Shown: piece by piece, positions 37,378-56,335 of the stretch | How the letters are laid out: every line of letters starts with the position of its first letter | Position numbering within the stretch: the first letter of the stretch is position 1 | Source: Pelagomonas calceolata | Lineage: Eukaryota | NCBI GenBank assembly: GCA_918797485.1 | Contig: CAKKNE010000001.1 | Location: 4,712,001-4,776,000, forward strand | Length of the DNA stretch: 64,000 nucleotides | Reading direction: 5' to 3' | Notes under the pieces: generated by a model | Database searches by the model: none | What the model saw: only the letters and a program-made list of their open reading frames with translations | Told to the model about the DNA's origin: nothing | Program-made: the position numbers and the translations under genes

Positions 37378-38874
37378 ATGGCGAAGGTCCCCGTCACGGT
37401 CCTGACCGGCTTCCTCGGGAGCGGGAAAACGACCCTACTCAACCACATCCTCACGAAGCAGCATGGGAAAAGGATTGCGGTCATCGAGAACGAGTTCGGC
37501 GAGCGCGTCGCGGCGTCCCAGGGAATTTGTTGATTCTTCACTTGCAACCTTAGACGCGCCATCGCCGCGGCGTCGTCTCGATGCCTGATCCGCGCAGGGT
37601 CGGCATCGACGACGCCTTGCTCGCGAACAACATCAAGAACCAGGTCGAGGGCGAAGAGCTCTTCGAGATGATGAACGGCTGCATCTGCTGCACGGTCCGA
37701 GCTGACTTAGCGGTGGTGCTCAAGAAGCTGAAGAAGACGCACGAGTCCGGGAAACCGATCGAAGCCATTGTCATCGAGACGACGGGCATGGCCGACCCGG
37801 CGCCGGTCGCGCAGACGTTTTTTGTGGATGACGAGATCGCGTCGTTCTGCCAGTTGGATGGGATCGTTACCTTGGTCGATGCGAAGCACATCGTGCAGCA
37901 CTTAGATGAAGAGAAACCAGAAGGTGCTGAAAATGAAAGTGTAGAGCAGGTGGCCTTCGCTGATAGACTCATCCTGAACAAGTGCGACCTGGTACCCAAG
38001 GAGGAAGATTTGAAGGCAGTCGAGACGCGCCTCCGCTCGATCAACAAGTTCGCGCCGATCGTGCGTTCCACGAAGTCCGAGGTCTCCCCGGACCAGGTCC
38101 TAGGTATCGGCGCCTTCGACCTCAAGCGCACGCTCGAGATGGACCCCGAATTCTTAGATACGGAGGGCGAGCACGAGCACGACAACACCGTGTCGAGCAT
38201 TGGCATCAACATCGAGGGCGACGTCGACTTAGGGTTATTTAGTGGATGGCTCGAAGTGTTGTTGAGGGACAAGGGCGCGGATCTGTTCAGAATCAAAGGA
38301 GTGTTAGCGGTGAAAGGGGTCCCGGACAAGTACGTCTACCACGCGGTCCGTGGCTCGGAGTTGTGAACGAACTTGAACTTGACGCGGTCGCGGCGATGGC
38401 GTCTTCATGAGACCACGCCGCCTCGACGCCGTCGATGCGGCCTCGTGAATGTACGGAGGCAGTTTCGCGACGGCGTCGTTCCACGCACAGGTGCACATGA
38501 TCTACGAGGGCCGCTTCACGGAGCAGTGGGGCCAGAACGAGGCGAGGACCTGCAAGCTCACCTTCATCGGCAAGAACCTGGACCACGACGGGTTGCGGTC
38601 CGGATTCGAAGATTGCTTAGCTAATGAAGCGAACTACGACAAGCTCAAGAAGTCCTTCCGCTTCACGATCGGCGACGCGGTGGAGTGCAACACGGGCGAC
38701 GGCTGGGTCCGCGGCACGGTCGTGGATCTGCTTTATAGGGAGGAGGGCATGCACCCGTCGTTCCTCGCGCCGTACCAGGTGAAGTTGGACGACGGCGGCC
38801 TGATCTACTGCCCGGCGGACCAGGACACGTGCGTGCGCCGCGCCGTCGCCGTGACGGGGCGCAAGGCGCTCTGA
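37378..38874 (+). CDS. COG0523/CobW zinc metallochaperone GTPase, 3 exons (37378-37502, 37598-38345, 38491-38874)
   Basis: [41 protein letters not shown] intron 37503-37597 and GT-AG intron 38346-38490 restore the frame. Confidence 0.93.
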
Positions 38875-38938
38875 GCCCTTTCCCACTTCCCTTCGACGCG
38901 CACGCGGCGCGCCGGCCCTAAGACTTTGTTTACCATGG
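38778..38938. repeat. inverted repeat, left arm (161 bp)
   Basis: Ungapped reverse complement of 43321-43481, 147/161 identical by manual count. Confidence 0.92.
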
Positions 38939-39147
38939 GTGCCGCGTCGGCCCGCGTGCTTTCTGGGGACTCCCTGCCGCGGTCTTGGGACTCGGTGCTC
39001 GGACTGGCGCCATGGCGGCGGTTTTTTTCGTGCGGGGTGCCGCTCTCGATTAACGACGCTCTCCGGGGTTTTTGAAGCGGGCCACGCGCCGCCTGTACAA
39101 AAAAAGCTGCCCGCGAGATCGTTGGGCAGCAACCACAAGGCAGCACC

Positions 39148-42100
39148 ATGGGCGCGACCGCCAGCGTGCAGCTCTGGACATGGCAGAAGCTCGCCGAGCA
39201 TGCGGAGGCGGCAAGGCAGCCGCCCGTGGTCCTGGACGCCATCCGCAAGCACAAGCTCGATGCCGCGACGGCGCTCGAGATGGGGGAGGAGGACGTGGCG
39301 CGGCTCAAGCCGAAACTCGAGCAGCTCGACCGGCTCAAGGTGCTGGCGGCCCTCGGGAAGATAAAGTCCTTCACGCACGACGCCGACAGGGCGCGCGCAA
39401 AACTCGCCGGGCTGGCCGTGGACGAGTTCGGGGGGATCCGGCCCATGTTCGAGCGGCTGGACCGCCGGGACGCGCGGAACCTGTCGCTCGCCGAGTTCTC
39501 GCGGGGCCTCAAAAAACATGAGCTCCACGGCCGGTTCCCGTACGAAGAGCAGCAGATGGTCTTCAGGGCCATCCACGCCGACGCGACAGAGATGATGTTC
39601 TTTTCGCAAATCGTCGTCGTGGAGGATCTCATAGCCTGGCTCGAACAGCGCGACCCGAGGTACGCCTACGTGCCCGCCGACTACGTCGAGCCGCCCGAGC
39701 TCCAGACCGTGACGGCGGAGGCGCCGCGCATCGACGCCGATACGATCTCGCGCGTCCAGAAGCCGCTCGGCGAGGGCAGCTTCGGCACCGTCGTGAGCGC
39801 GACGACCTGGAAGCAGTCGTGGCGTAAAAAGAAGCAGAAGGTCGCGCTCAAGAGCGCCACCGGGGCCGGTCTAGGAACGGACGTCGCCCCCGCCGAGCTG
39901 TTTGCCCTGCAGGAGCGGCCGAACCCGTTTGTCTTGCAAGTGCATGGCGTGACATCAATAGATGGCTTACCCAATGTGCTGATGGAGCTGGGCATGTGCT
40001 CGCTGGCGGACGCGATGCAAACGGGTCTCGGGCGGGACCGCCGCGAGGCGGTGCGCGCGGCGCGCGATATAGCACTCGGGCTCGAATTCATGCACAAGAA
40101 GGGCGTATCTCACCTGGCCCTGCACCCGAAAAACGTCCTCCTGGCCCGGAAATCAACGCAGGCGAGCGCCAACGCGTCCCGCGTGTTCCAGCACGCGCGG
40201 AGCGATTCCACCGAGTCCTGGCCGCACGACGTCGTTCACTGCAAGCTCACGGACCAAAAGGACGTATCTGTGGCCGCGCGGCGCGCGGCTGAGGGCTCGC
40301 ACTACTCCGCCCCCGAGCTGCTGAGCGACCACGCGGGAGTGCACTACTCGTCGTTCGACGTTGCCCTGGAGAAGCGGTGCGACGTGTGGTCCTACGGCGC
40401 CGTGCTGGCAGAGCTGCTGACGGGTGAAGCCCCCTGGGCTGAACTTTCCAAAGATGCGCTCGTCGCCGCAAATATGGCAGGCGCACCGCCGCCGCCGATC
40501 CCCGAGTATCTCGCCGATTATCTCGCCGGCGGAGAAGAAAAAGAACGCGTCGAGGCCCGCGTCGCCGCGCCGGAGCTCCTGGAGCTGGTCACGGACTGCC
40601 TGACCGTCGACCCGGCCGCGCGGCCGCGATTCGAGGACGATGTCGTGGAGCGCCTGGACCTGCTGCTCCTCAAGGCGGCCGTCGAGCATCGCGAGGCCGG
40701 CGCGGATCTACGGACTGCGGTGACGCACCTCGCGCAGCTCGCCAAGATCGAGAAACTGATCGAAGACGAGAAACAGAAGGACGCCGACGCCTACAAGCGG
40801 GCCTGGGAGGACTGCAAGCGCGACGCCGAGGAGGGGGAAGTCGACTACCTCAACCTGGCCTGCGCCGAGCTCCAGGAGGCGTTTTCGCCGGAAGTCGTGC
40901 GCCAGCCGGTAGCTTGTAGCGCCCGGGAGCTCGTCGCGAGGGCCTCGGACGTGAGCGACGCCTTCCACGCGACGCTGCGACCGGTCGTCGAGGAGGCCGG
41001 CGGCACGTATAAGGAGGGGCCCCTCAAGCTGGAGGAGCGGGTCCGCGACAAGGCCCGCAGCGATGACTACAAGGGCGACGTGGCGCGGGTCGTGGACGTG
41101 GTGCGCGCGACGGGCGTCTTCGAGAAAATCCCGAGCTTCAAAGAGGCCATCGCGGCGCTGCGCGCGCGCGACGACGGCGGCGACCTCCGGATCCGCAGAG
41201 CGAAGGACCGCATCAACAACCCCAAAGCGGGCTACATGGACATGCTCATCAACGTGGAGATCGATAATCATGTGGGCGAGCTGCAGCTCTCGTTCAAAAA
41301 GCTGCTCGACATCAAGCCCTCGGCGCACCGGATCTATAATCTTACGCGGACGCTCGGTGGCGAGGGGCGGATCCTGGACGAGCTCGGCCTCAGCACGCCG
41401 CCGAAGATTACGCTGCACGAGGCGTGCGAAAGCGGAGACACCGAAGTCGTGCAGAAGTGGCTGGACCGCGGCGCCGACCCCGACCGGATCTATATAAGAC
41501 AGGGCATGGAAAGCCAGAAGACGGCGGAACAACAGAAGGAAACAGCCATGAAACAACTGTCCAACTCTCAACTGAATTATGGGTTTAGGAGGTGGTTGAT
41601 CGGCCTCCGAGGCCGGCTCGTAGGCAGACCGCCGCTCGTTGTCGCGTGCCGGCACGGCCACATCGACGCGGCGCGGTTATTGCTGGACAACGGCGCGGAC
41701 GTTAATCTGGCGAATAAGTGGGGTGTGACGCCGCTGTACGCCGCCTGCTTAAAGGGCTACGTCGACACGGCGCGGCTGTTGCTGGAGCGCGGTGCGGACA
41801 TCAACCGACCGCAAGAGAACGGCTGCACGGTGCTATACGGTGTATGCGAGGACGGGATATTTGACGAGGCGCTTCTGGTCTTTCTGCTGAATAGTGGGGC
41901 GAATACCAACCAGGCTGCGGAGGGGGGCTGGACGCCGCTGCACATCGCATGCTTTGAGGGCCGGGTCGACGCGGCGCGGTGGTTGCTGGAATACGGCGCG
42001 GACGTAAATCGGGTGTTGGAGGACGGCGGGACGGCGCTGCACATCGCCTGTCAGGAGGGCCACGTCGACATGGCGCGGCTATTGCTGGACAACGGCGCGG

Positions 42101-43290
42101 AGGTCAACAATCGGGCGATGGAGGACGGTGCGACGCCGCTGTGCATCGCCTGTCAGGAGGGCCACGTCGACACTGCGCGGATGTTGCTGGACAAAGGGGC
42201 GGACGTCGATCAGGCGAGAGATGACGGTTCGACGCCAATGTCCATCGCAAAACAAGAGGGCCACTCGGCCGTCGTCTCGCTGCTGGAGGACCACATGTAT
42301 CCGCTACACGCCGCGGCCAAAAACGGAGACGTCGCCGCGCTGACGCGGCTCCTAGACGGGAATGTGCCCACGGAATCGGCGGGCGGGGAGTCGTCGCAGG
42401 AAGAATCATACGACGCTGACCAGGATGACTGCCGCCTGAAAATCGATGATAGCTTCTCTACGCCGAGTGACGATTTCGTCACTGTGGCAAGGCTGAAGGT
42501 CCCCGCAGGGCACGAGGCGAGCTGCGCGAACATGTCCGGGCTCTGGACCAACCTATTCTTCGGAGATCGGAAGGGGAGACTACGTTTGACGTTGTTCAGG
42601 GGCGAGGAGGAAGTCGCCTCTTCTGAACTGTCTGACGGGCCGCACGAGAATAGCGTCTTGAGACTCGAGCTCGAAAATATCTCCGCGGTCGCCGGCGACG
42701 CGGTTGCCGTGCAGACCATCGTGGGCGGCGGTGCTTCCGGCAACGTGGGCGGCGAGATTTCGATTAATGCTACCTTGCTTTTGGACGCTGTCCCAGTTAA
42801 GGAGAGCCGTCCGGGACGGCAACTGGAGATCGACGCGCTTAGGAACGATAACACTCCGCTCATGCTTGCGTGCGAGAACGGCCACATCGACGCGGCGCGG
42901 GTGTTGCTGGACAAAGGCGCCAACATCAGTTTTGCGGACGGGAAGGGTCGGACACCGTTAACTGCCGCGTGCTGGGGCGAGGACGCAGATATGCGGCCCC
43001 ACGTCGACGTGGCGCGGCTATTGTTGGAGCGGGGCGCGGATGTCAATCATGCCGAGAACGACGGCACGACAGCGCTCTACCTCGCCTGTCAGAACGGCCA
43101 CGTCGACATGGTGCGTCTATTGCTGGAGCATGGAGCCGCATTTGACCGGGCAGGCATGAGCGGCACGACGCCATTGTCCATCGCAAAGAGACATGGCCAC
43201 TTGGCCGTCGTCGAGCTGATCGAGGACCGCATGCCGAAGACGGACGACGCCGCGCCTTCGGGCGCCATGATGGTCATGGCGCCACCCTGA
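39148..43290 (+). CDS. SAM-like/EF-hand/pseudokinase/RelA-SpoT-like/ankyrin multidomain protein
   Basis: EF-hand-like DRRDARNLSLAEF; LGEGSFG, VALK, YSAPE, DVWSYG; GPLK..ERVRDK, DVVR, GYMD, ELQL; many TPL..AC..GH repeats. Confidence 0.85.
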   Translation: MGATASVQLWTWQKLAEHAEAARQPPVVLDAIRKHKLDAATALEMGEEDVARLKPKLEQLDRLKVLAALGKIKSFTHDADRARAKLAGLAVDEFGGIRPMFERLDRRDARNLSLAEFSRGLKKHELHGRFPYEEQQMVFRAIHADATEMMFFSQIVVVEDLIAWLEQRDPRYAYVPADYVEPPELQTVTAEAPRIDADTISRVQKPLGEGSFGTVVSATTWKQSWRKKKQKVALKSATGAGLGTDVAPAELFALQERPNPFVLQVHGVTSIDGLPNVLMELGMCSLADAMQTGLGRDRREAVRAARDIALGLEFMHKKGVSHLALHPKNVLLARKSTQASANASRVFQHARSDSTESWPHDVVHCKLTDQKDVSVAARRAAEGSHYSAPELLSDHAGVHYSSFDVALEKRCDVWSYGAVLAELLTGEAPWAELSKDALVAANMAGAPPPPIPEYLADYLAGGEEKERVEARVAAPELLELVTDCLTVDPAARPRFEDDVVERLDLLLLKAAVEHREAGADLRTAVTHLAQLAKIEKLIEDEKQKDADAYKRAWEDCKRDAEEGEVDYLNLACAELQEAFSPEVVRQPVACSARELVARASDVSDAFHATLRPVVEEAGGTYKEGPLKLEERVRDKARSDDYKGDVARVVDVVRATGVFEKIPSFKEAIAALRARDDGGDLRIRRAKDRINNPKAGYMDMLINVEIDNHVGELQLSFKKLLDIKPSAHRIYNLTRTLGGEGRILDELGLSTPPKITLHEACESGDTEVVQKWLDRGADPDRIYIRQGMESQKTAEQQKETAMKQLSNSQLNYGFRRWLIGLRGRLVGRPPLVVACRHGHIDAARLLLDNGADVNLANKWGVTPLYAACLKGYVDTARLLLERGADINRPQENGCTVLYGVCEDGIFDEALLVFLLNSGANTNQAAEGGWTPLHIACFEGRVDAARWLLEYGADVNRVLEDGGTALHIACQEGHVDMARLLLDNGAEVNNRAMEDGATPLCIACQEGHVDTARMLLDKGADVDQARDDGSTPMSIAKQEGHSAVVSLLEDHMYPLHAAAKNGDVAALTRLLDGNVPTESAGGESSQEESYDADQDDCRLKIDDSFSTPSDDFVTVARLKVPAGHEASCANMSGLWTNLFFGDRKGRLRLTLFRGEEEVASSELSDGPHENSVLRLELENISAVAGDAVAVQTIVGGGASGNVGGEISINATLLLDAVPVKESRPGRQLEIDALRNDNTPLMLACENGHIDAARVLLDKGANISFADGKGRTPLTAACWGEDADMRPHVDVARLLLERGADVNHAENDGTTALYLACQNGHVDMVRLLLEHGAAFDRAGMSGTTPLSIAKRHGHLAVVELIEDRMPKTDDAAPSGAMMVMAPP

Positions 43291-43320
43291 GGGGTCGACT
43301 AAGAATCTGTGCGTAGAAGA

Positions 43321-43481
43321 CCATGGTAAACAAAGTCTTAGGGCCGGCGCGCCGCGTGCGCGTCGAAGGGAAGTGGGAAAGGGGTCAGAGCGCCGGCCGC
43401 GCCGTCACGGCGACGGCGCGCCGGACGCATATGCCCTGGTCCGCGGAGCAGTAGATCAGGCCGCCGTCGTCGAGCTTCACC
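43321..43481 (-). repeat. inverted repeat, right arm; copy of the CobW 3' end
   Basis: Minus strand encodes [31 protein letters not shown] plus the 3' UTR. Confidence 0.92.
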
Positions 43482-44082
43482 GGCGGTGGCACTCGTGGCC
43501 TTGACGTAGAGCTTTTTGAGGCGGTCCGGCGACGCCGGTGATGGCGCGCGGCCCGGTTATCTGCGGGGTTTCATCTGCGCGAGCAGACCGCCGTCGAGTC
43601 GGCCGCGGCGATGCAGCGCCTACCCGGCGACGGGCGTCGCGCATAGTCTACGTGACGCGGCGACTCAGCGGTCGCAACGTTTGTCGGCGCACCGCCCCAA
43701 AACACGGTCTACCAGCGCCTCGCCGGAGCAGCTTATCCACGCCGGCTCCGAGGCGTGGGGAATGAGCGGAGGCCGGCGATGGCGTCGTGGGGTCCCACCA
43801 TAGGAAGGAGATGTCGACGCAGTCCCAGCTAGACGTACGCGCGGACCACGGAGCCCTCCTCTGGGTTTGGCTATGGAGCTGGCGACAGTGTGCTCCACGT
43901 GTCGTGGCGGGCCGCGTTCCTCTGGGGTAACCACTCTTTAAGTAGTAGGTAGTAGCGATCCCGATTCGGCCCAACGTCTATCGGCGGCCTCTGGATCGCT
44001 CAGACGGTCGACGGAGAGAGGCGCGTAGTCGACAACAATACCTAGTGTCTTTAACATGCCGCTAGCTGCCAAAAATTAGCAT

Positions 44083-44628
44083 TTGTTTCCCGACACACTT
44101 ACCGTGTTCCCGACGTTTGCCTCCAAGCTCGACGTCACGTACAAACCGGTGGAGTTGTTGGAGGCCACGCTGCTGTCGAAGGAGGACATGATCAAGGCGT
44201 GGACCGTCGCGGCGCAGCCGGGTCCCGCCCGTCGGAACGGCACGCGGCCGACGTTTGTGCTGGCGACGTCCATGCCGCCGAGGAGCGCAGGGATCTACGC
44301 ATTCTATCCGTCTCCGGCCCACTACTGGTTGACGAACATCCAGGGGACGAGTATTAGCAGCCTCAGGTTCATCTTCGAGCCCGTCGGAGTCACCGACCCG
44401 CGCAAGATTAAGTCGGGCACGATGGACCGCCCGGTGACCAACATCACGAAGCCCAGACTGGACGCGCGCTTCGGCACGTCGAAAGCGATTGAGAACGACG
44501 ACTCGGACGACTCGGACGAGGAGCTATTCTTCAAGTACGAGAAGGACCAGCCGGCCGGCGCGATCCTCAAGTTCGTCGTCAACAAATACCTCGAGGCTTA
44601 CGGCACGGACAATCGACGCGTCTCGTGA
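44083..44628 (+). CDS. hypothetical protein or gene fragment
   Basis: High-GC3 ORF; start uncertain; no family recognised. Confidence 0.45.
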   Translation: MFPDTLTVFPTFASKLDVTYKPVELLEATLLSKEDMIKAWTVAAQPGPARRNGTRPTFVLATSMPPRSAGIYAFYPSPAHYWLTNIQGTSISSLRFIFEPVGVTDPRKIKSGTMDRPVTNITKPRLDARFGTSKAIENDDSDDSDEELFFKYEKDQPAGAILKFVVNKYLEAYGTDNRRVS

Positions 44629-44743
44629 GTCCCTTCGGGCAGGGTACTTGCGTTGTACTAAGTGCGATTCTCCATAGCCACAACACCACTACTACAAAGA
44701 CTTCTTACCACCCCGCGCCGCCGCGCGCGCGAGGTACGAGGGA

Positions 44744-45571
44744 CTAGTCCAGGTACATGACCGTCACGAGCTTGTCCATCTCCTTGGCCTCGACGGTCGT
44801 CCGCACGACCGTCTTCGAGTCGTGGTACGCGAAGGCGATGAGGTGCTCCGTCTCCTTCACCAATCTCCGGTTGCAGCGCTTCGAGGCCACGTCCAGAGAT
44901 AGCGCGTCGTTCTCGGGCATCTGGACGACCTGCGTCACCTCCGCGATCAGCTCCTGGCAGTCCTCCGTCTGCTTGCTCCGCGACTGCGGCAGGATTACCG
45001 TTAGTAGCTCCGTGGAGTTCGCGCGCAGCGCGCCGCGGATCGCCGCGGCGTTCGTGCCGGCGGCGCCCGACGTGTAGACGTGGTTCCCCGACAGCACCAA
45101 GGCGTAGCTCAGCAACTCGATGATCTGCTGGTGCAGGTACGAGCAATGCCGCGTGCCCAGAATACAATAAGTCCTATTGGCGGACCCCTGGATCTCGCGC
45201 AGCTCCCTCAGCATGTCCTCCATGCCCGTCGACTTTTCCAGCTGGAGCTGGGGGCTCGAGAAGGGGTCCTCCTTCTCGAGCGTGACGACGCGCGAGTCGC
45301 CCTCGAGCGTCGTCTTCCGCTCGCCGCGGCGCTCGGCGCGCGGCGCGGCGTAGAGCGGCTCGACGCCCCGCTCGGCGCGCGGCGCGGCGTAGAGCTCAAG
45401 CGGAGGCGCCGGCGCGTCTGGCCTGCCACTCGCTTGCGCCTCGCTGTAAAGTTCTATCCTGGCTGTGGATGGCGAGCGTGCCCGCGCCGGGACGTGCGGC
45501 AAAAAGCCGACGCTGCAGCTGATCACGCATAGGACAAGGACAACACCGCTGGGGGGTATCCTCACCTTCAT
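44744..45571 (-). CDS. DprA/Smf-like Rossmann-fold protein of cyanobacterial/algal type, probably plastid-targeted
   Basis: ILGTRHCSYLHQQIIELLSYAL, TSGAAGTNAAAIRGALRA, FAYHDS; signal peptide then F. Confidence 0.8.
   Translation of the reverse strand: MKVRIPPSGVVLVLCVISCSVGFLPHVPARARSPSTARIELYSEAQASGRPDAPAPPLELYAAPRAERGVEPLYAAPRAERRGERKTTLEGDSRVVTLEKEDPFSSPQLQLEKSTGMEDMLRELREIQGSANRTYCILGTRHCSYLHQQIIELLSYALVLSGNHVYTSGAAGTNAAAIRGALRANSTELLTVILPQSRSKQTEDCQELIAEVTQVVQMPENDALSLDVASKRCNRRLVKETEHLIAFAYHDSKTVVRTTVEAKEMDKLVTVMYLD
45330..45395. repeat. 27-bp direct repeat, 39-bp period (LYAAPRAER x2)
   Basis: 45330-45356 = 45369-45395. Confidence 0.85.
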
Positions 45572-45980
45572 TTGTGCCGCAAAAACGTGCCGCAAAAGCC
45601 GTCAACCCAGAGCGCGCGGGGCGGTGCTCTGGCTGGCCCAACTCTAATACGGCGCCGGGAGGGCGAGAAGTGACTCGCTGCCGCTTTGTTGGCGTCAAAG
45701 GAGATTCTTGAGGGTGTATGCTGCACTGCGTGCGCCTCAACCTGCTAGCGCGCGAGCAAAAGCCAAAAGCGCGATTCTTGGGGCTAGTGTGTCACATGCC
45801 GCTAGCTGATTTCATTGGCCTGTGCCTTTTGGCAGCCGCTACGCAGCAACACGCAGCATCTGGCCTTCAGCACAGTCGCAGCGCTCGATTTCTGAGCGCA
45901 TCGCTCCCTTAGAGCACTCAGCGGCAGCCAAGGTGTCAGCATCAGGCAGCAGCTTGCGGCAGCTTGCCGCAGCCAGCGCC

Positions 45981-52413: not shown

Positions 52414-52898
52414 TCAGGTCGTCCTTCCGGTGTTGGGTAAGAGTCGCCTCGTAGACTTGAGCGGTCGCGGCGATGGCGTCGCGTCGGTGGCGTCGCAGGC
52501 CAGCGATCCGTCCAGTAGGACCGGCCGCGGGCGCGGCGCGTTTTTGTGCAAGCTCCCATTCACCGAGCTAAGATAGTATTTCGTCCAAGCGGCGCCGGAA
52601 CGTTCCGGTGCGGCCTTTACGGCTGCGGAGAAACTGGAGCTTCGTACGGGGCGTCGGCCAAGTCGAGCGCATACGCCCGAGGTAGTCGCAGCCTAAACGT
52701 TGCACCAGTGAGCGTTTTTGCAATCTGGGCTGCGCCTAGCTATTCTGGTTGCTGTCAGAAGCACAACAGCTTGCAGCGACGCGCGCCGACAGGCCGACGG
52801 CCAACAAAGCAAACTCGCCTTTGCCATTAAAATAATTGCAAAACACGCGCGGCGCGCGGCATCGCATAAGTAGTTGCAGAAAAGGCGCCGCAGCAGGC

Positions 52899-55800
52899 AT
52901 GCCGACGCTCATGAGCGGCGACGCGCCCATGGGCGCGAGCCAGGCGAAGTACGCGCAGGTCGCCCAAGACGAAGGACAAAAACCCCTCGAGGTCGAGGCG
53001 CCGTCGGGACCCCTCGGGAGCGGCGCGCCGCCGGTCATGCGCAAGCCGGCCTTCTGGGCGGCTGTTCTAGTGGTGGCGTTGGGGGCCTCCGTGATGTTAA
53101 GTGGTCCGGCAGCCCCACCACCAACCATCTCGGAAACGCCGGAGACAGACGTACCAGCTACGTCCTACTCGACACCTACTCTACGAGGTACGGAAGATAG
53201 CACGTTAACGGCACTCATCGCGGAGAACTCGCGGTTGCGCGCCGACCTCGCCAGCAAAGGCACAGGAGGCGCCTCGGACGAGGCCTTTTCTGCCTTGTTC
53301 GAGGAGAACGGGAGATTGAGGGCGGAACTGGCCCAGAAACCAGCTTCGACAGGAGGTGAGTTTGACATCGGAGCTTATCGAGCCGAGCGCTTAGCAGCCA
53401 CACCCCCGAACATAATAGAGTGCGCCGAGGCTACTGCAGGCGCGTCCCAGGAGGCCTGCCACCTGCCGAAAGAGCGGCGCTTCGAGGCCATCCAGCAAAA
53501 GGGCATCACGCTGTGGATGACCGGGTTGAGTGGTTCCGGTAAGTCTACCATAGCTAGAGCGTTGGAAGAAGCTCTAGTATTGAAATACGGCAAAGTCGTG
53601 CAACAGCTCGACGGCGACAACGTGCGCACGGGATTGAACAGAGATTTAGGCTTCACACCCGCAGATAGAGATGAATCTGTGAGACGCGTCGGGGAACTCG
53701 CTTGTCTCTTCAACGGCGGCGGCGTCATCACTTTAGTTACGTTGGTGTCACCGTACCGAGCGGCTCGGGACGCCGCGCGCCAAAGACACGAGGAGCAGCA
53801 TCTCAAGTTCCTCGAGGTCTTCATGAACGTGCCCATCGACGAGGTACGGCCCACGGCGTCTGTTGATCTTCGTTCGCGTCGCGTCGATGGCGTCTGGGGG
53901 AGAGCAGGCCGTTTTGGACCGCTTCTGTATATCGTCGCGGCGCGGCGGTCGCGGCGATGGCGTCTTCACCACGCTCACGCGAGCGTGTCCGTCCGACGCA
54001 GGTCCAAAAACGCGACCCCAAGGGCCTCTACGCGAAGGTGGCTGCCGGTGAAATTAAGTCCTTTACTGGTATGAGCGCGGACGCGCCCTACGAGGCGCCT
54101 TTGCATCCTGAGGTGGATTTGCCCAATAGGGATCTGTCGGTGGACGAGTGCGTCCAGCGGTTGCTCGATGTCCTTAGAAGAGAAGGCGTGCTCGAAGGTG
54201 GTATGACGGATCCTTCTGGTTTACCTTTGCCGCCGGGGTACGTGGATGGCTGGCTCGAGGACTCCCTACACTTGTCGGGTAGTGCCGCGATTACCGCTAA
54301 AAACCAAGCTTTGTCGTTACCGAAAGTGCGGCTGAATGATATTGACGTGAACTGGCTCCAAGTACTGGGAGAGGGCTGGGCCGCTCCCTTAAAAGGTTTC
54401 ATGCGGGAGTCGGTGTTGCTCCAATCATTACATTTCAATTCAGTGCTGATTGATCCCTTCGGCAATCAAGGCGACGCGCATATCAACGAGGAAGCGACGA
54501 ACTGGGAGTCGACTTCTCATGCCTCGACAAGAGCTTCTCTCGCGGTACCGATCGTGCTACCCATCACGTCCGGTACGCGCGACGCTATACTGAACAGTAA
54601 CCAGAGAACGGTAGCTCTAGTTGATAAAGATGGGAAATTCCTAGGGCAATTACACGACCCGGAGATCTACAACAACCGCAAGGAGGAAATAGTATCGAGA
54701 TGCTTTGGAGCTATCGACGCCGACCACCCTTATATAAAACATATCTATTCGGGTGGTGATTACCTGTTAGGAGGCGAGATCGAGCTCTTTGAGAGAATCA
54801 CGTATAATGATGGCCTAGACAAGTGGCGCAAGACGCCCAAGGAGCTTTATGGTGAGTTCAAGGCCAAGGGAGCTGATGTCGTCTTCGCGTTTCAGACCAG
54901 GAATCCCACACATGCCGGTCATGCGTATTTGATGAGAACTGGACGAGAACGCTTGGTAGCCAAGGGCCATTCCAATCCAGTCCTGTGGCTCTCGCCGCTA
55001 GGCGGGTGGACCAAAAGTGATGACGTCCCGCTCGACGTCCGCGTGAAACAACACCAAGCGATCTTAGATGAAGGGATGCTCGACCCGTCCTGGACGGTCA
55101 TGGGCATCTGGCCCGCTCCTATGATTTATGCTGGACCTACGGAGGTCCAATTCCACGCCGCTTCGCGCCGAGCGGGAGGGGCCTCCTTCTTCGTCGTGGG
55201 TCGGGACGCGGCGGGCATCAAAGGTTCGAGTGTCGCCGTCACACATACGGATGATGATATGTACGACGCCAATCACGCTAGATTTGTGTTACAAGCGTCT
55301 CCCTTACTTGATGACGGCGTCATGCAGCTTTTATCCTTTGATAAATTTTTTTACGATAAGTCAGATCATCAGATGAAGGCCATGGACCCGTCGCGCGAAG
55401 ATGATTTCATATCTATCTCCGGAAGTAAGATGAGGGCGTTGGCGAGGCAAGGCGCGGTCCCTTGCACGGATCCCATCCCTTCTGATCTACTCGCAGCGAA
55501 CTGCGTCCCGCAGGGCTTCATGGTGCCCACGGGCTGGGCGATAGTGTGTGACTACTACCAGAATGTTGACAGTGGCAAGTTCGTGCCTTGGAGCAAGCGC
55601 GTCGCGTACAACGAAGATAGGGCTACGGACGCGGTGGAAGAAGGGAGATTCGGTACTACTTCGTACTCCTTATTCCCGTCGTATCAAGGCCGTACGATGG
55701 TCTCGCCCTGGCACGACATTCCCCTGCGAAGCGGTTCTCATTATAATTTCATCACTGAAATCCCGATGTATACCTCGGCGAAGATGGAAGTGAGTAAAGA

Positions 55801-56335
55801 AAAGTACCGGAACCCCATCATGCAGGACACGAACAAGGACGGGTCTCCTAGATATTATACCTACGGCGTGCCCTTCTTCAATTATGGGTTACTACCGCAG
55901 ACCTGGGAGGATCCGGCTCTCAAATCGGCCGAAGGGTACGGTGGTGACAATGATCCTCTAGATGTGATCGAAGTCGGCGACGGGCCCCTGCCGATGGGGT
56001 CGACGACTCCGGTCGTTGTTTTAGGTTCATTGGAGCTCATAGATGAAGGCGAGACGGACCACAAGATTATTGCCTTGCGGGCGTCGGACCCGCGCGCGTC
56101 GTCCGTGAGGTCGTTGGATGATTTGGAACGGTCCTCGCCGGGATTGACCGCTCGATTGGTGGACTGGCTCAAGATGTACAAGACGTCGGACGGCAAGGGC
56201 ATCAATCAGTTGGCGAACAACGAGCGGCCGACGTCGGCGAGCGAGGCCGAGGCCATCATCGCCGAGTGCGAGCAGCGCTGGCGGGCGCTGCTCGCGGCGC
56301 CGAACGCGCGGCCCGAGTTCTGGCTGCCGCACTGA
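52899..56335 (+). CDS. PAPSS: APS kinase-ATP sulfurylase-pyrophosphatase fusion with N-terminal TM, 2 exons (52899-53843, 54002-56335)
   Basis: TGLSGSGKST, LDGDNVR; QTRNPTHAGH, VGRD; SPWHDIP, GDNDPLDV; intron 53844-54001 restores PIDE-VQKRDPKGLY. Confidence 0.93.

What the first reader, a model, noticed from the sequence alone, without database searches (positions are those of the whole stretch)
39148..43290. Eukaryotic RelA/SpoT-like nucleotidyltransferase fused to a pseudokinase, EF-hand and ankyrin array
The region ~41017-41340 shows GPLK-xx-ERVRDK, DVVR, GYMD and HVGELQL in the order of the RelA/SpoT synthetase motifs (RxK...K, catalytic D, GY, ExQ). The upstream kinase keeps the Gly loop, VALK and APE, but HRD reads HLA and DFG reads DQK, so it is probably inactive. 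No targeting peptide is evident, unlike plastid RSH enzymes. Inference: a cytosolic sensor-effector in which ankyrins or Ca2+ gate synthesis of a (p)ppNpp-like signal or toxin, possibly in antiviral defence.
Basis: partly seen in the sequence, partly recalled or inferred. Interest (0 to 1): 0.8.

Follow-up and report, generated by a model that had tools for sequence, protein, structure and literature searches.

The report
Algal sensor-linked alarmone synthetase protein
A eukaryote, likely a marine alga, transcribes one gene that joins a domain predicted to fold like bacterial alarmone-making toxins, with the main catalytic residues kept, to a kinase missing its catalytic aspartate and to ankyrin repeats that differ strongly between strains; it likely acts as an intracellular sensor that would switch on alarmone synthesis for signalling or self-poisoning.

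Summary
39148-43290 is one unspliced, transcribed 1380-aa ORF. Residues ~585-737 model as a RelA/SpoT (RSH) synthetase (pLDDT 93.6). The best profile match is the bacterial toxin Tas1/Apk1 (E 1e-21, against 2e-6 for ppGpp synthetases), and K627, R631, K635, D650, R653, Y696, E711 and Q713 are kept. The acceptor motif (D-x-L-x-N) matches neither ppGpp (SxH) nor ppApp (GxN) enzymes, so the product is open. The kinase lacks the HRD aspartate. The EF-hand is degenerate, so Ca2+ gating is unsupported. Between wild alleles the synthetase shows only synonymous changes (7 and 0) while the first ankyrin array is reshuffled (81-86% nt identity). The domain belongs to a large family (1232 clusters): a eukaryote-like branch fused to kinases, helicase-like NTPases and repeats, and a phage branch often beside alarmone hydrolases. 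Best reading: a regulated cytosolic sensor-effector pyrophosphokinase, probably defensive. Activity and any antiviral role are untested. Cytosolic RSH domains are known in fungal NLRs; I found no paper on this clade. The scan earlier noted a foraminiferal RSH-14-3-3 fusion on other DNA.

The parts
39148..43290 (+). Single-exon gene, 1380 aa (P0001)
   Evidence: sense-strand polyA reads with no splice joint inside the ORF, low depth
39148..39165 (+). MGATAS: predicted N-myristoylation motif (MGxxxS)
   Evidence: sequence; 11 of 137 Met-starting family representatives have MGxxx[ST], 1.06 expected; consensus recalled
39175..39372 (+). Helical N-terminal domain, possibly SAM-like (aa ~10-75); a lead only
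   Evidence: ESM Atlas nearest cluster SAM_2 97% at score 0.87; no Pfam hit; model pLDDT 46-60; conserved in 10 of 10 aligned relatives
39433..39645 (+). Degenerate EF-hand-like pair (aa ~96-166), probably not Ca2+-binding
   Evidence: Pfam EF-hand_7 E 0.077, below cut-off; absent in P0191, P0196, P0200
39739..40677 (+). Pseudokinase (aa ~198-510): keeps Gly loop, K235, alphaC E250, N329 and the DFG aspartate D369; catalytic aspartate replaced by A324
40708..40899 (+). Long helical linker (aa 521-584) with a family-conserved D-x3-Y-x2-A-W motif
40900..41358 (+). Tas1/Apk-like RelA/SpoT synthetase domain (aa ~585-737): K627 R631 K635, D650 R653, R684 K686, G695 Y696 D698 N702, E711 Q713
41404..42357 (+). 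Ankyrin array 1 (aa ~753-1070); aa 827-1039 (41626-42264) is hypervariable between alleles
42433..42804 (+). Unassigned ~124-aa insert between the two arrays, present in some paralogues and absent in others
42844..43242 (+). Ankyrin array 2 (aa ~1233-1365), conserved between alleles (127 of 130 aa against P0164)
38778..38938 (+). Left arm of a 161-nt inverted repeat: the end of the upstream CobW-family coding sequence plus its 3' UTR
   Evidence: the CobW transcript ends at about 38935
43321..43481 (-). Right arm (91% identical): inverted copy of the CobW 3' end, likely a rearrangement scar at this locus

Best explanation
The gene encodes a likely membrane-anchored cytosolic sensor-effector whose RelA/SpoT-fold domain is predicted to transfer pyrophosphate from ATP to a 3'-OH acceptor, likely a purine nucleotide giving (p)ppApp or (p)ppGpp, and which would be switched on when its strain-variable ankyrin array binds a foreign or damage cue, most likely in defence. 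Shown: the predicted fold, the kept catalytic residues, transcription, purifying selection on the synthetase, reshuffling of ankyrin array 1, and loss of the kinase aspartate. Inferred: myristoylation anchors it to membranes; the pseudokinase binds ATP and, with the 521-584 helices, holds the synthetase off until the repeats are engaged, as the pseudokinases of RNase L and receptor guanylyl cyclases regulate the enzyme next to them; the output is ATP depletion, growth arrest or death of the affected cell, or a second messenger. My odds: catalytically active 0.8. Product, given activity: (p)ppApp 0.4, (p)ppGpp 0.25, mixed or other nucleotide 0.15, tRNA 3' end 0.2. Defence role 0.55.
For: Profile match to Tas1 E 1.1e-21 against 2.4e-6 for the next synthetase; structure searches. 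Apk1 residues R330, E382 and the following Gln (PMC12691689 section 5) align with R653, E711, Q713. 112 of 136 fully covering homologue rows keep all eight key residues, and so does the query. Window against wild allele L001: aa 511-750 has 7 synonymous and 0 non-synonymous changes; aa 827-1039 has about 38 and 83 (dS 0.29, dN 0.20). 13 of 13 listed read variants in aa 511-750 are synonymous (7 table rows not shown by the tool). Ankyrin units 2, 5 and 6 are closer to other repeats than to their positional partner in L001, like the WD-repeat shuffling of fungal het-d/e (PMC1805685 abstract). Relatives carry LRR, TPR, WD40, ARM or ankyrin repeats, helicase-like NTPases or Roc-COR. 22 of 151 representatives have a kinase just upstream; of 13 readable catalytic loops 7 keep and 6 lose the aspartate. 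17 of 49 phage loci of the sister branch have an HD hydrolase within 2.5 kb, as toxin cassettes do (PMC10083569 passages). Sense-strand transcription at low depth.
Against: No activity was measured. The Syn3 acceptor site is D-x-L-x-N; Apk1 N370 aligns to L700, so one of the five Apk1 site residues named is not kept, and K353 aligns ambiguously (R684 or K686). The Syn4 His of Apk enzymes is S715 in the query (His in 81 of 138 family rows). Tas1-like enzymes differ in product: SaEAS makes both alarmones, AaEAS and VpEAS only (p)ppGpp. Ankyrin dN/dS is 0.70, below 1, so the variation may be neutral repeat recombination. Nothing ties the gene to infection. The SAM call is a lead only, and the multi-domain model has pTM 0.49, so no pseudokinase-synthetase contact is shown. 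The hydrolase count includes the phage used to build the profile and near-duplicate loci, and 32 of 49 loci have no hydrolase. Some close copies look broken or truncated (P0016, P0196).
Confidence: 0.5

Rival explanations
1. It is an active but non-defensive signalling enzyme that makes a low level of cytosolic alarmone in response to nutrient, energy or kinase-pathway cues, with the pseudokinase as an ATP/ADP sensor.
For: [quoted passage not shown]
Against: Repeat reshuffling confined to one ankyrin array, turnover of divergent paralogues at the same locus, varied repeat and NTPase partners, and toxin-type closest relatives are more typical of conflict genes.
Confidence: 0.22
2. It is a regulated tRNA (or other RNA) 3'-pyrophosphokinase like CapRel or FaRel2, blocking translation rather than making a free alarmone.
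For: Same fold (CapRel 7ztb Z 10.8). The acceptor motif matches neither nucleotide-specific signature, and a conserved basic C-terminal helix (K723, H727, R734) could bind RNA. CapRel is sensor-activated (passage).
Against: Sequence is far closer to Tas1 (E 1e-21) than to any tRNA-modifying toxin, none of which appears among the 11 profile hits; Tas1 also has this helix's Lys, His, Tyr and Arg.
Confidence: 0.13
3. The domain is a catalytically silent nucleotide-binding module or scaffold.
For: No Pfam RelA_SpoT hit; unusual Syn3; R697 of the family is Met here (9 of 148 rows).
Against: All ATP-donor and metal residues are kept under purifying selection; the residue after the Syn3 Tyr varies among active enzymes (R, S, K).
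Confidence: 0.15

Closest known systems
Tas1/Apk1 (PDB 6OX6), Apk2 and exported alarmone synthetases (SaEAS, 8VX3)
   Same: Synthetase fold, P-x-K-x3-R-x3-K, D-x-x-R-x-T, GY and E-x-Q motifs; best sequence and Foldseek hit.
   Different: Eukaryotic, no PAAR, MuF or signal peptide, no adjacent immunity gene; Syn3 is D-x-L-x-N instead of GxN; embedded between a pseudokinase and ankyrins.
Phage GYRD-type synthetases (e.g. Bordetella phage PHB04 ATI15652.1, next to a small ORF and a Mesh1-like hydrolase)
   Same: 31% identity over 177 aa and the same GYRD motif; sister branch in the trees.
   Different: Phage cassette with a separate hydrolase; no kinase or repeats; I found no characterisation of it.
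Fungal NLRs with an N-terminal RelA_SpoT domain
   Same: Cytosolic eukaryotic RSH domain in a repeat-sensor protein (17 Sordariales NLRs implied by '14 - 82%'; bioRxiv 2024.11.26.625400 passages).
   Different: Those have a central NACHT and match Pfam PF04607; this protein has a pseudokinase and no NTPase. Relationship between the two RSH clades was not tested.
RNase L and receptor guanylyl cyclases
   Same: A pseudokinase directly followed by an effector enzyme; RNase L also has ankyrin sensors (PMC4718504 passages).
   Different: Analogy of layout only; different effector, ankyrins C-terminal here.
Plastid long RSH enzymes, including Ca2+-activated CRSH/RSH4
   Same: RSH synthetase domain in an alga.
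   Different: No hydrolase, TGS or ACT domain, no targeting peptide, no intact EF-hand; Tas1-type motifs.

Membership tests
RSH synthetase superfamily | SYNTH fold | tested here: met
RSH synthetase superfamily | Catalytic Asp and Glu plus basic ATP-binding residues | tested here: met
   D650, E711, K627, R631, K635, R653, Q713 by profile alignment to Tas1; residue-level structural superposition was not available
RSH synthetase superfamily | Pfam PF04607 at the curated cut-off | tested here: not met
   no hit for the query; 22 of 103 family members hit at E<=0.01; P0022 and P0076 pass the cut-off
RSH synthetase superfamily | Pyrophosphate transfer from ATP to a 3'-OH | not testable with these tools
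   needs biochemistry
Apk1/Apk2 (p)ppApp synthetases | Syn2 R-x-T signature | tested here: met
   D-V-V-R-A-T; signature from PMC12226406 passage
Apk1/Apk2 (p)ppApp synthetases | Syn3 GxN signature | tested here: not met
   D-M-L in the query; Asp in 135 of 148 rows; SxH of ppGpp synthetases is also absent
Apk1/Apk2 (p)ppApp synthetases | Syn4 His two residues after E-x-Q | tested here: not met
   S715 in the query; His in 81 of 138 family rows; Tas1 itself has Asn here
Apk1/Apk2 (p)ppApp synthetases | PAAR or MuF delivery domain and adjacent immunity gene | tested here: not met
   domains and neighbours
Plastid long RSH / CRSH | Hydrolase domain and plastid targeting peptide | tested here: not met
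   no HD hit; no hydrophobic N-terminus
Plastid long RSH / CRSH | Ca2+-binding EF-hands | tested here: not met
NLR/STAND receptors | Central NACHT or NB-ARC NTPase | tested here: not met
   none in P0001; helicase-like NTPases occur in relatives P0008, P0012, P0072, P0228
NLR/STAND receptors | Variable C-terminal repeat sensor | tested here: met
   variability shown; ligand binding is inferred
Pseudokinases | Kinase fold lacking at least one of VAIK-Lys, HRD-Asp, DFG-Asp | tested here: met
   fold; A324 replaces HRD-Asp; definition from PMC4718504 passage
SAM domain | Five-helix SAM fold or profile match | tested here: inconclusive
   Atlas lead 0.87; no Pfam hit; low-confidence model

The most novel reading that the evidence does not exclude
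Marine protists have turned a phage-type alarmone toxin into a family of innate immune receptors: myristoylated (pseudo)kinase-synthetase-repeat proteins that detect infection through reshuffled repeats and kill or arrest the cell by making (p)ppApp or a new pyrophosphorylated nucleotide. This would be the first cytosolic alarmone-based immune effector shown in eukaryotes.
Probability: 0.3. Interest if true: 0.9.

Novelty: new variant of a known kind. Interest (0 to 1): 0.7.

Why it matters
Alarmone synthesis in eukaryotes is known mainly from plastids. A review passage says (p)ppApp has not been detected in plants or algae, and another that no cytosolic eukaryotic synthetase is known. A compact, expressible 150-200-aa domain with intact catalytic residues makes that question directly testable. 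Its new acceptor motif may mean a new product. If defensive, it adds a toxin-derived cell-death or signalling effector to the immunity of abundant phytoplankton and another case of bacterial or phage conflict enzymes reused by eukaryotes.

Tried and rejected
Pfam, NCBIfam, PHROGs and PADLOC do not name the domain: no Pfam hit, weak NCBIfam PRK09169 at E 0.003, weak phrog_37685 at E 3.5e-4, no PADLOC hit. Ca2+ sensing was rejected (degenerate loop, module dispensable). A plastid RSH was rejected (no HD domain, no targeting peptide). A pseudogene or spurious ORF was rejected (transcribed, purifying selection). Hidden introns were rejected: the joints seen inside the ankyrin region have short sides and inserted letters and are best read as reads from other ankyrin genes. 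No second copy of the domain lies in the window. No whole genome is held, so paralogue number and a partner hydrolase could not be checked. The broad alignments A2 and A5 were too divergent for locus scans, so bacterial genomes and giant viruses were not surveyed with the eukaryotic profile. P0148 alone found no viral locus. The insert at aa 1096-1219 stays unassigned (best Pfam E 0.097 for a paralogue's copy). The careful tree did not finish; both trees are quick trees with SH-aLRT only, and the viral rows were found with patterns from the phage-like branch, which favours their grouping. The Tas1 paper itself was not held. Sequence look-up of earlier findings gave nothing.
Full report
Gene and organism. 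39148-43290 (+) is one open frame of 1380 codons in a GC-rich eukaryotic window. The only named eukaryotic relatives of the domain were Aureococcus anophagefferens and Symbiodinium proteins, and holders are one cultured organism plus marine metatranscriptomes, so a marine pelagophyte-like alga is my inference. Four raw polyA runs of one sample show sense-strand reads. Run X24 covers every bin from 39056 to 43315 at depth 4.7-31; the other three are lower, with some empty bins; the CobW neighbour is at about 200-1200. No splice joint lies in the ORF. Depth over the ankyrins is probably inflated by reads from other ankyrin genes.

The synthetase domain. Pfam misses it, but phmmer found 1232 cluster representatives at E<=0.001 and listed 150. 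A profile of 103 sequences (the query and 102 shorter hits) matches Tas1 at E 1.1e-21, then YwaC at 2.4e-6 and SaEAS at 0.004. AF2 gave pLDDT 93.6. Foldseek ranks Tas1 first and lists only RSH enzymes. VIA-align ranks RSH enzymes 1-10 (Z 8.6-12.7) above other nucleotidyltransferase folds (Z 8.1 or less). The ESM Atlas gave unnamed, mostly eukaryotic clusters at 0.93-0.94 and a RelA_SpoT cluster at 0.91.

Active site. Among 158 homologous domain rows, D650 is kept in 153 of 153 covering rows, R653 in 149 of 153, K627 in 147 of 152, E711 in 136 of 143 and Q713 in 133 of 142; 112 of 136 fully covering rows keep all eight key residues. PMC12691689 (section 5) names Apk1 R330, E382, the following Gln, N370 and K353 as site residues. 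With a numbering offset of 21 that I inferred, R330, E382 and the Gln align to R653, E711 and Q713; K353 falls near R684/K686; N370 aligns to L700. PMC12226406 (passages) gives Syn3 as SxH in ppGpp enzymes and GxN in Apk2. This family has D-x-L-x-N (D698 in 135 of 148, N702 in 119 of 146). Syn2 is Apk-like (R-A-T); Syn4 is His in 81 of 138 rows but Ser in the query. Tas1-like enzymes also differ in product (abstract). The donor half of the site is thus intact and the acceptor cannot be read from sequence.

Other domains. The kinase fold is clear. It keeps K235, E250, N329 and D369 but has Ala at the HRD aspartate, so it is a pseudokinase that may still bind ATP (inference from PMC4718504 passages). 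The EF-hand-like pair scores below cut-off and is missing in 3 of 10 aligned relatives. The N-terminus is MGATAS; MGxxx[ST] starts 11 of 137 Met-starting representatives against 1.06 expected, which suggests myristoylation (consensus recalled). Residues 10-75 may be a SAM domain (Atlas 0.87; no Pfam hit; low pLDDT). A 124-aa insert splits the ankyrins and comes and goes among paralogues. The 751-aa model has pTM 0.49, so domain packing is unknown.

Family context. Of 151 sequences (query plus 150 hits), 22 have a kinase upstream of the synthetase. Eight are fragments without the catalytic loop and one looks frameshifted; of the 13 left, 7 keep the aspartate and 6 do not. Those without it fall on several branches, which suggests repeated loss. 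Among 59 longer relatives scanned, others carry WD40, LRR, TPR, ARM, ankyrin, LIM or WWE domains and helicase-like NTPases; 28 had no Pfam hit at 1e-5; P0229 has Roc-COR and PH. A second branch is phage-like. Bordetella phage PHB04 encodes a 31%-identical GYRD protein after its portal gene, followed by a small ORF and a Mesh1-like hydrolase, and 17 of 49 viral loci have such a hydrolase within 2.5 kb (one is that same phage, some are near-duplicates, some loci are cut short). In a quick tree, 42 viral and 40 eukaryote-like rows separate on one branch (SH-aLRT 90; 96 rows unlabelled). The tree is unrooted, so the direction of transfer is not shown.

Variation at the locus. Wild allele L001 is 97.5-99.5% identical in nucleotides over 39200-41600 and 81-86% over 41600-42260. 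Codon counts give 7 synonymous and 0 non-synonymous changes in aa 511-750, and about 38 and 83 in aa 827-1039 (dS 0.29, dN 0.20). P0164, nearly the same allele as L001 (1025 of 1044 aa), is 211 of 211 identical in the linker and synthetase, 249 of 298 in array 1 and 127 of 130 in array 2. A contig from run X8 follows the window to 41636 and then diverges. Units 2, 5 and 6 resemble other repeats more than their positional partner. Raised dS and dN/dS of 0.70 point to repeat exchange, not proven positive selection. Three other contigs hold 45-58%-identical paralogues at the same locus, beside the CobW 3' end (L003) or the gene at 44747-45601 (L002; L004 in the opposite orientation), while the neighbours are 73-85% identical in protein; these may be sister species. 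The gene sits between inverted copies of the CobW 3' end, a likely rearrangement scar.

Mechanism. I commit to a regulated sensor-effector: membrane anchoring, a variable ankyrin sensor, a pseudokinase switch and a pyrophosphokinase output, most likely in defence (0.5 overall). Fold, residues, expression and selection pattern are shown. Activity, product, regulation and biological role are inferred.

Prior art. RelA_SpoT is a listed N-terminal domain of fungal NLRs (bioRxiv 2024.11.26.625400 and 2022.03.16.484565, passages; the latter found no cluster matching it at good coverage). Divergent stand-alone synthetases were noted in fungi, Dictyostelium and diatoms (PMC3153485 passages). RelA/SpoT domains occur in phage polyvalent and MuF proteins (PMC5512222 passages; PMC10083569 passages). 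The survey of 1,369 Apk1 homologues describes bacteria, and its main text has no occurrence of 'eukaryot'. Ten full-text searches (listings only, except the papers named) showed no paper on a protist Tas1-like or kinase-fused clade. The library lacks most subscription papers and I read no supplements, so this is limited evidence. Also seen as passages: PMC8118318, PMC10107265, PMC6881373, bioRxiv 2024.10.30.620910 (92, no mention of ankyrin or ppGpp); part 1 of 4 of PMC12226406; abstract only: PMC1805685.

Verdict. Real and unusual: a new eukaryotic variant of toxin-type alarmone synthetases in an immune-like layout, with a clear experimental path. Interest 0.7.

Noticed in passing
window 38778-38938 and 43321-43481: A 161-nt, 91% inverted duplication of the CobW gene's last codons and whole 3' UTR brackets the gene; the repeat ends within 3 nt of the CobW transcript end.
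   Followed up: partly
window 37502-37598: The CobW-family gene has a well-supported GC-AG intron, besides two GT-AG introns.
   Followed up: no
window 42433-42804: Unassigned insert between the ankyrin arrays, present in P0006, P0176, P0178, P0184 and absent in P0003; reminiscent of integrated domains in immune receptors (inference).
   Followed up: partly
L005 5260-7525: Bordetella phage PHB04 has an unannotated GYRD-type alarmone synthetase after the portal gene, then a 69-aa ORF and a Mesh1-like hydrolase: a likely toxin-immunity-hydrolase cassette.
   Followed up: partly
proteins P0008, P0012, P0072, P0228, P0229: Relatives with synthetase + helicase-like NTPase (+ WD40 or LRR in two), and one Roc-COR-PH-synthetase: NLR-like and Roco-like layouts worth their own study.
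   Followed up: no
window 52836-56335: APS kinase, ATP sulfurylase and pyrophosphatase domains in adjacent overlapping frames, probably one spliced fusion gene for sulfate activation.
   Followed up: no
window 44080-44628: A 182-codon frame downstream with no Pfam hit and almost no RNA cover; the stretch 43317-44688 is absent from contig L002.
   Followed up: no
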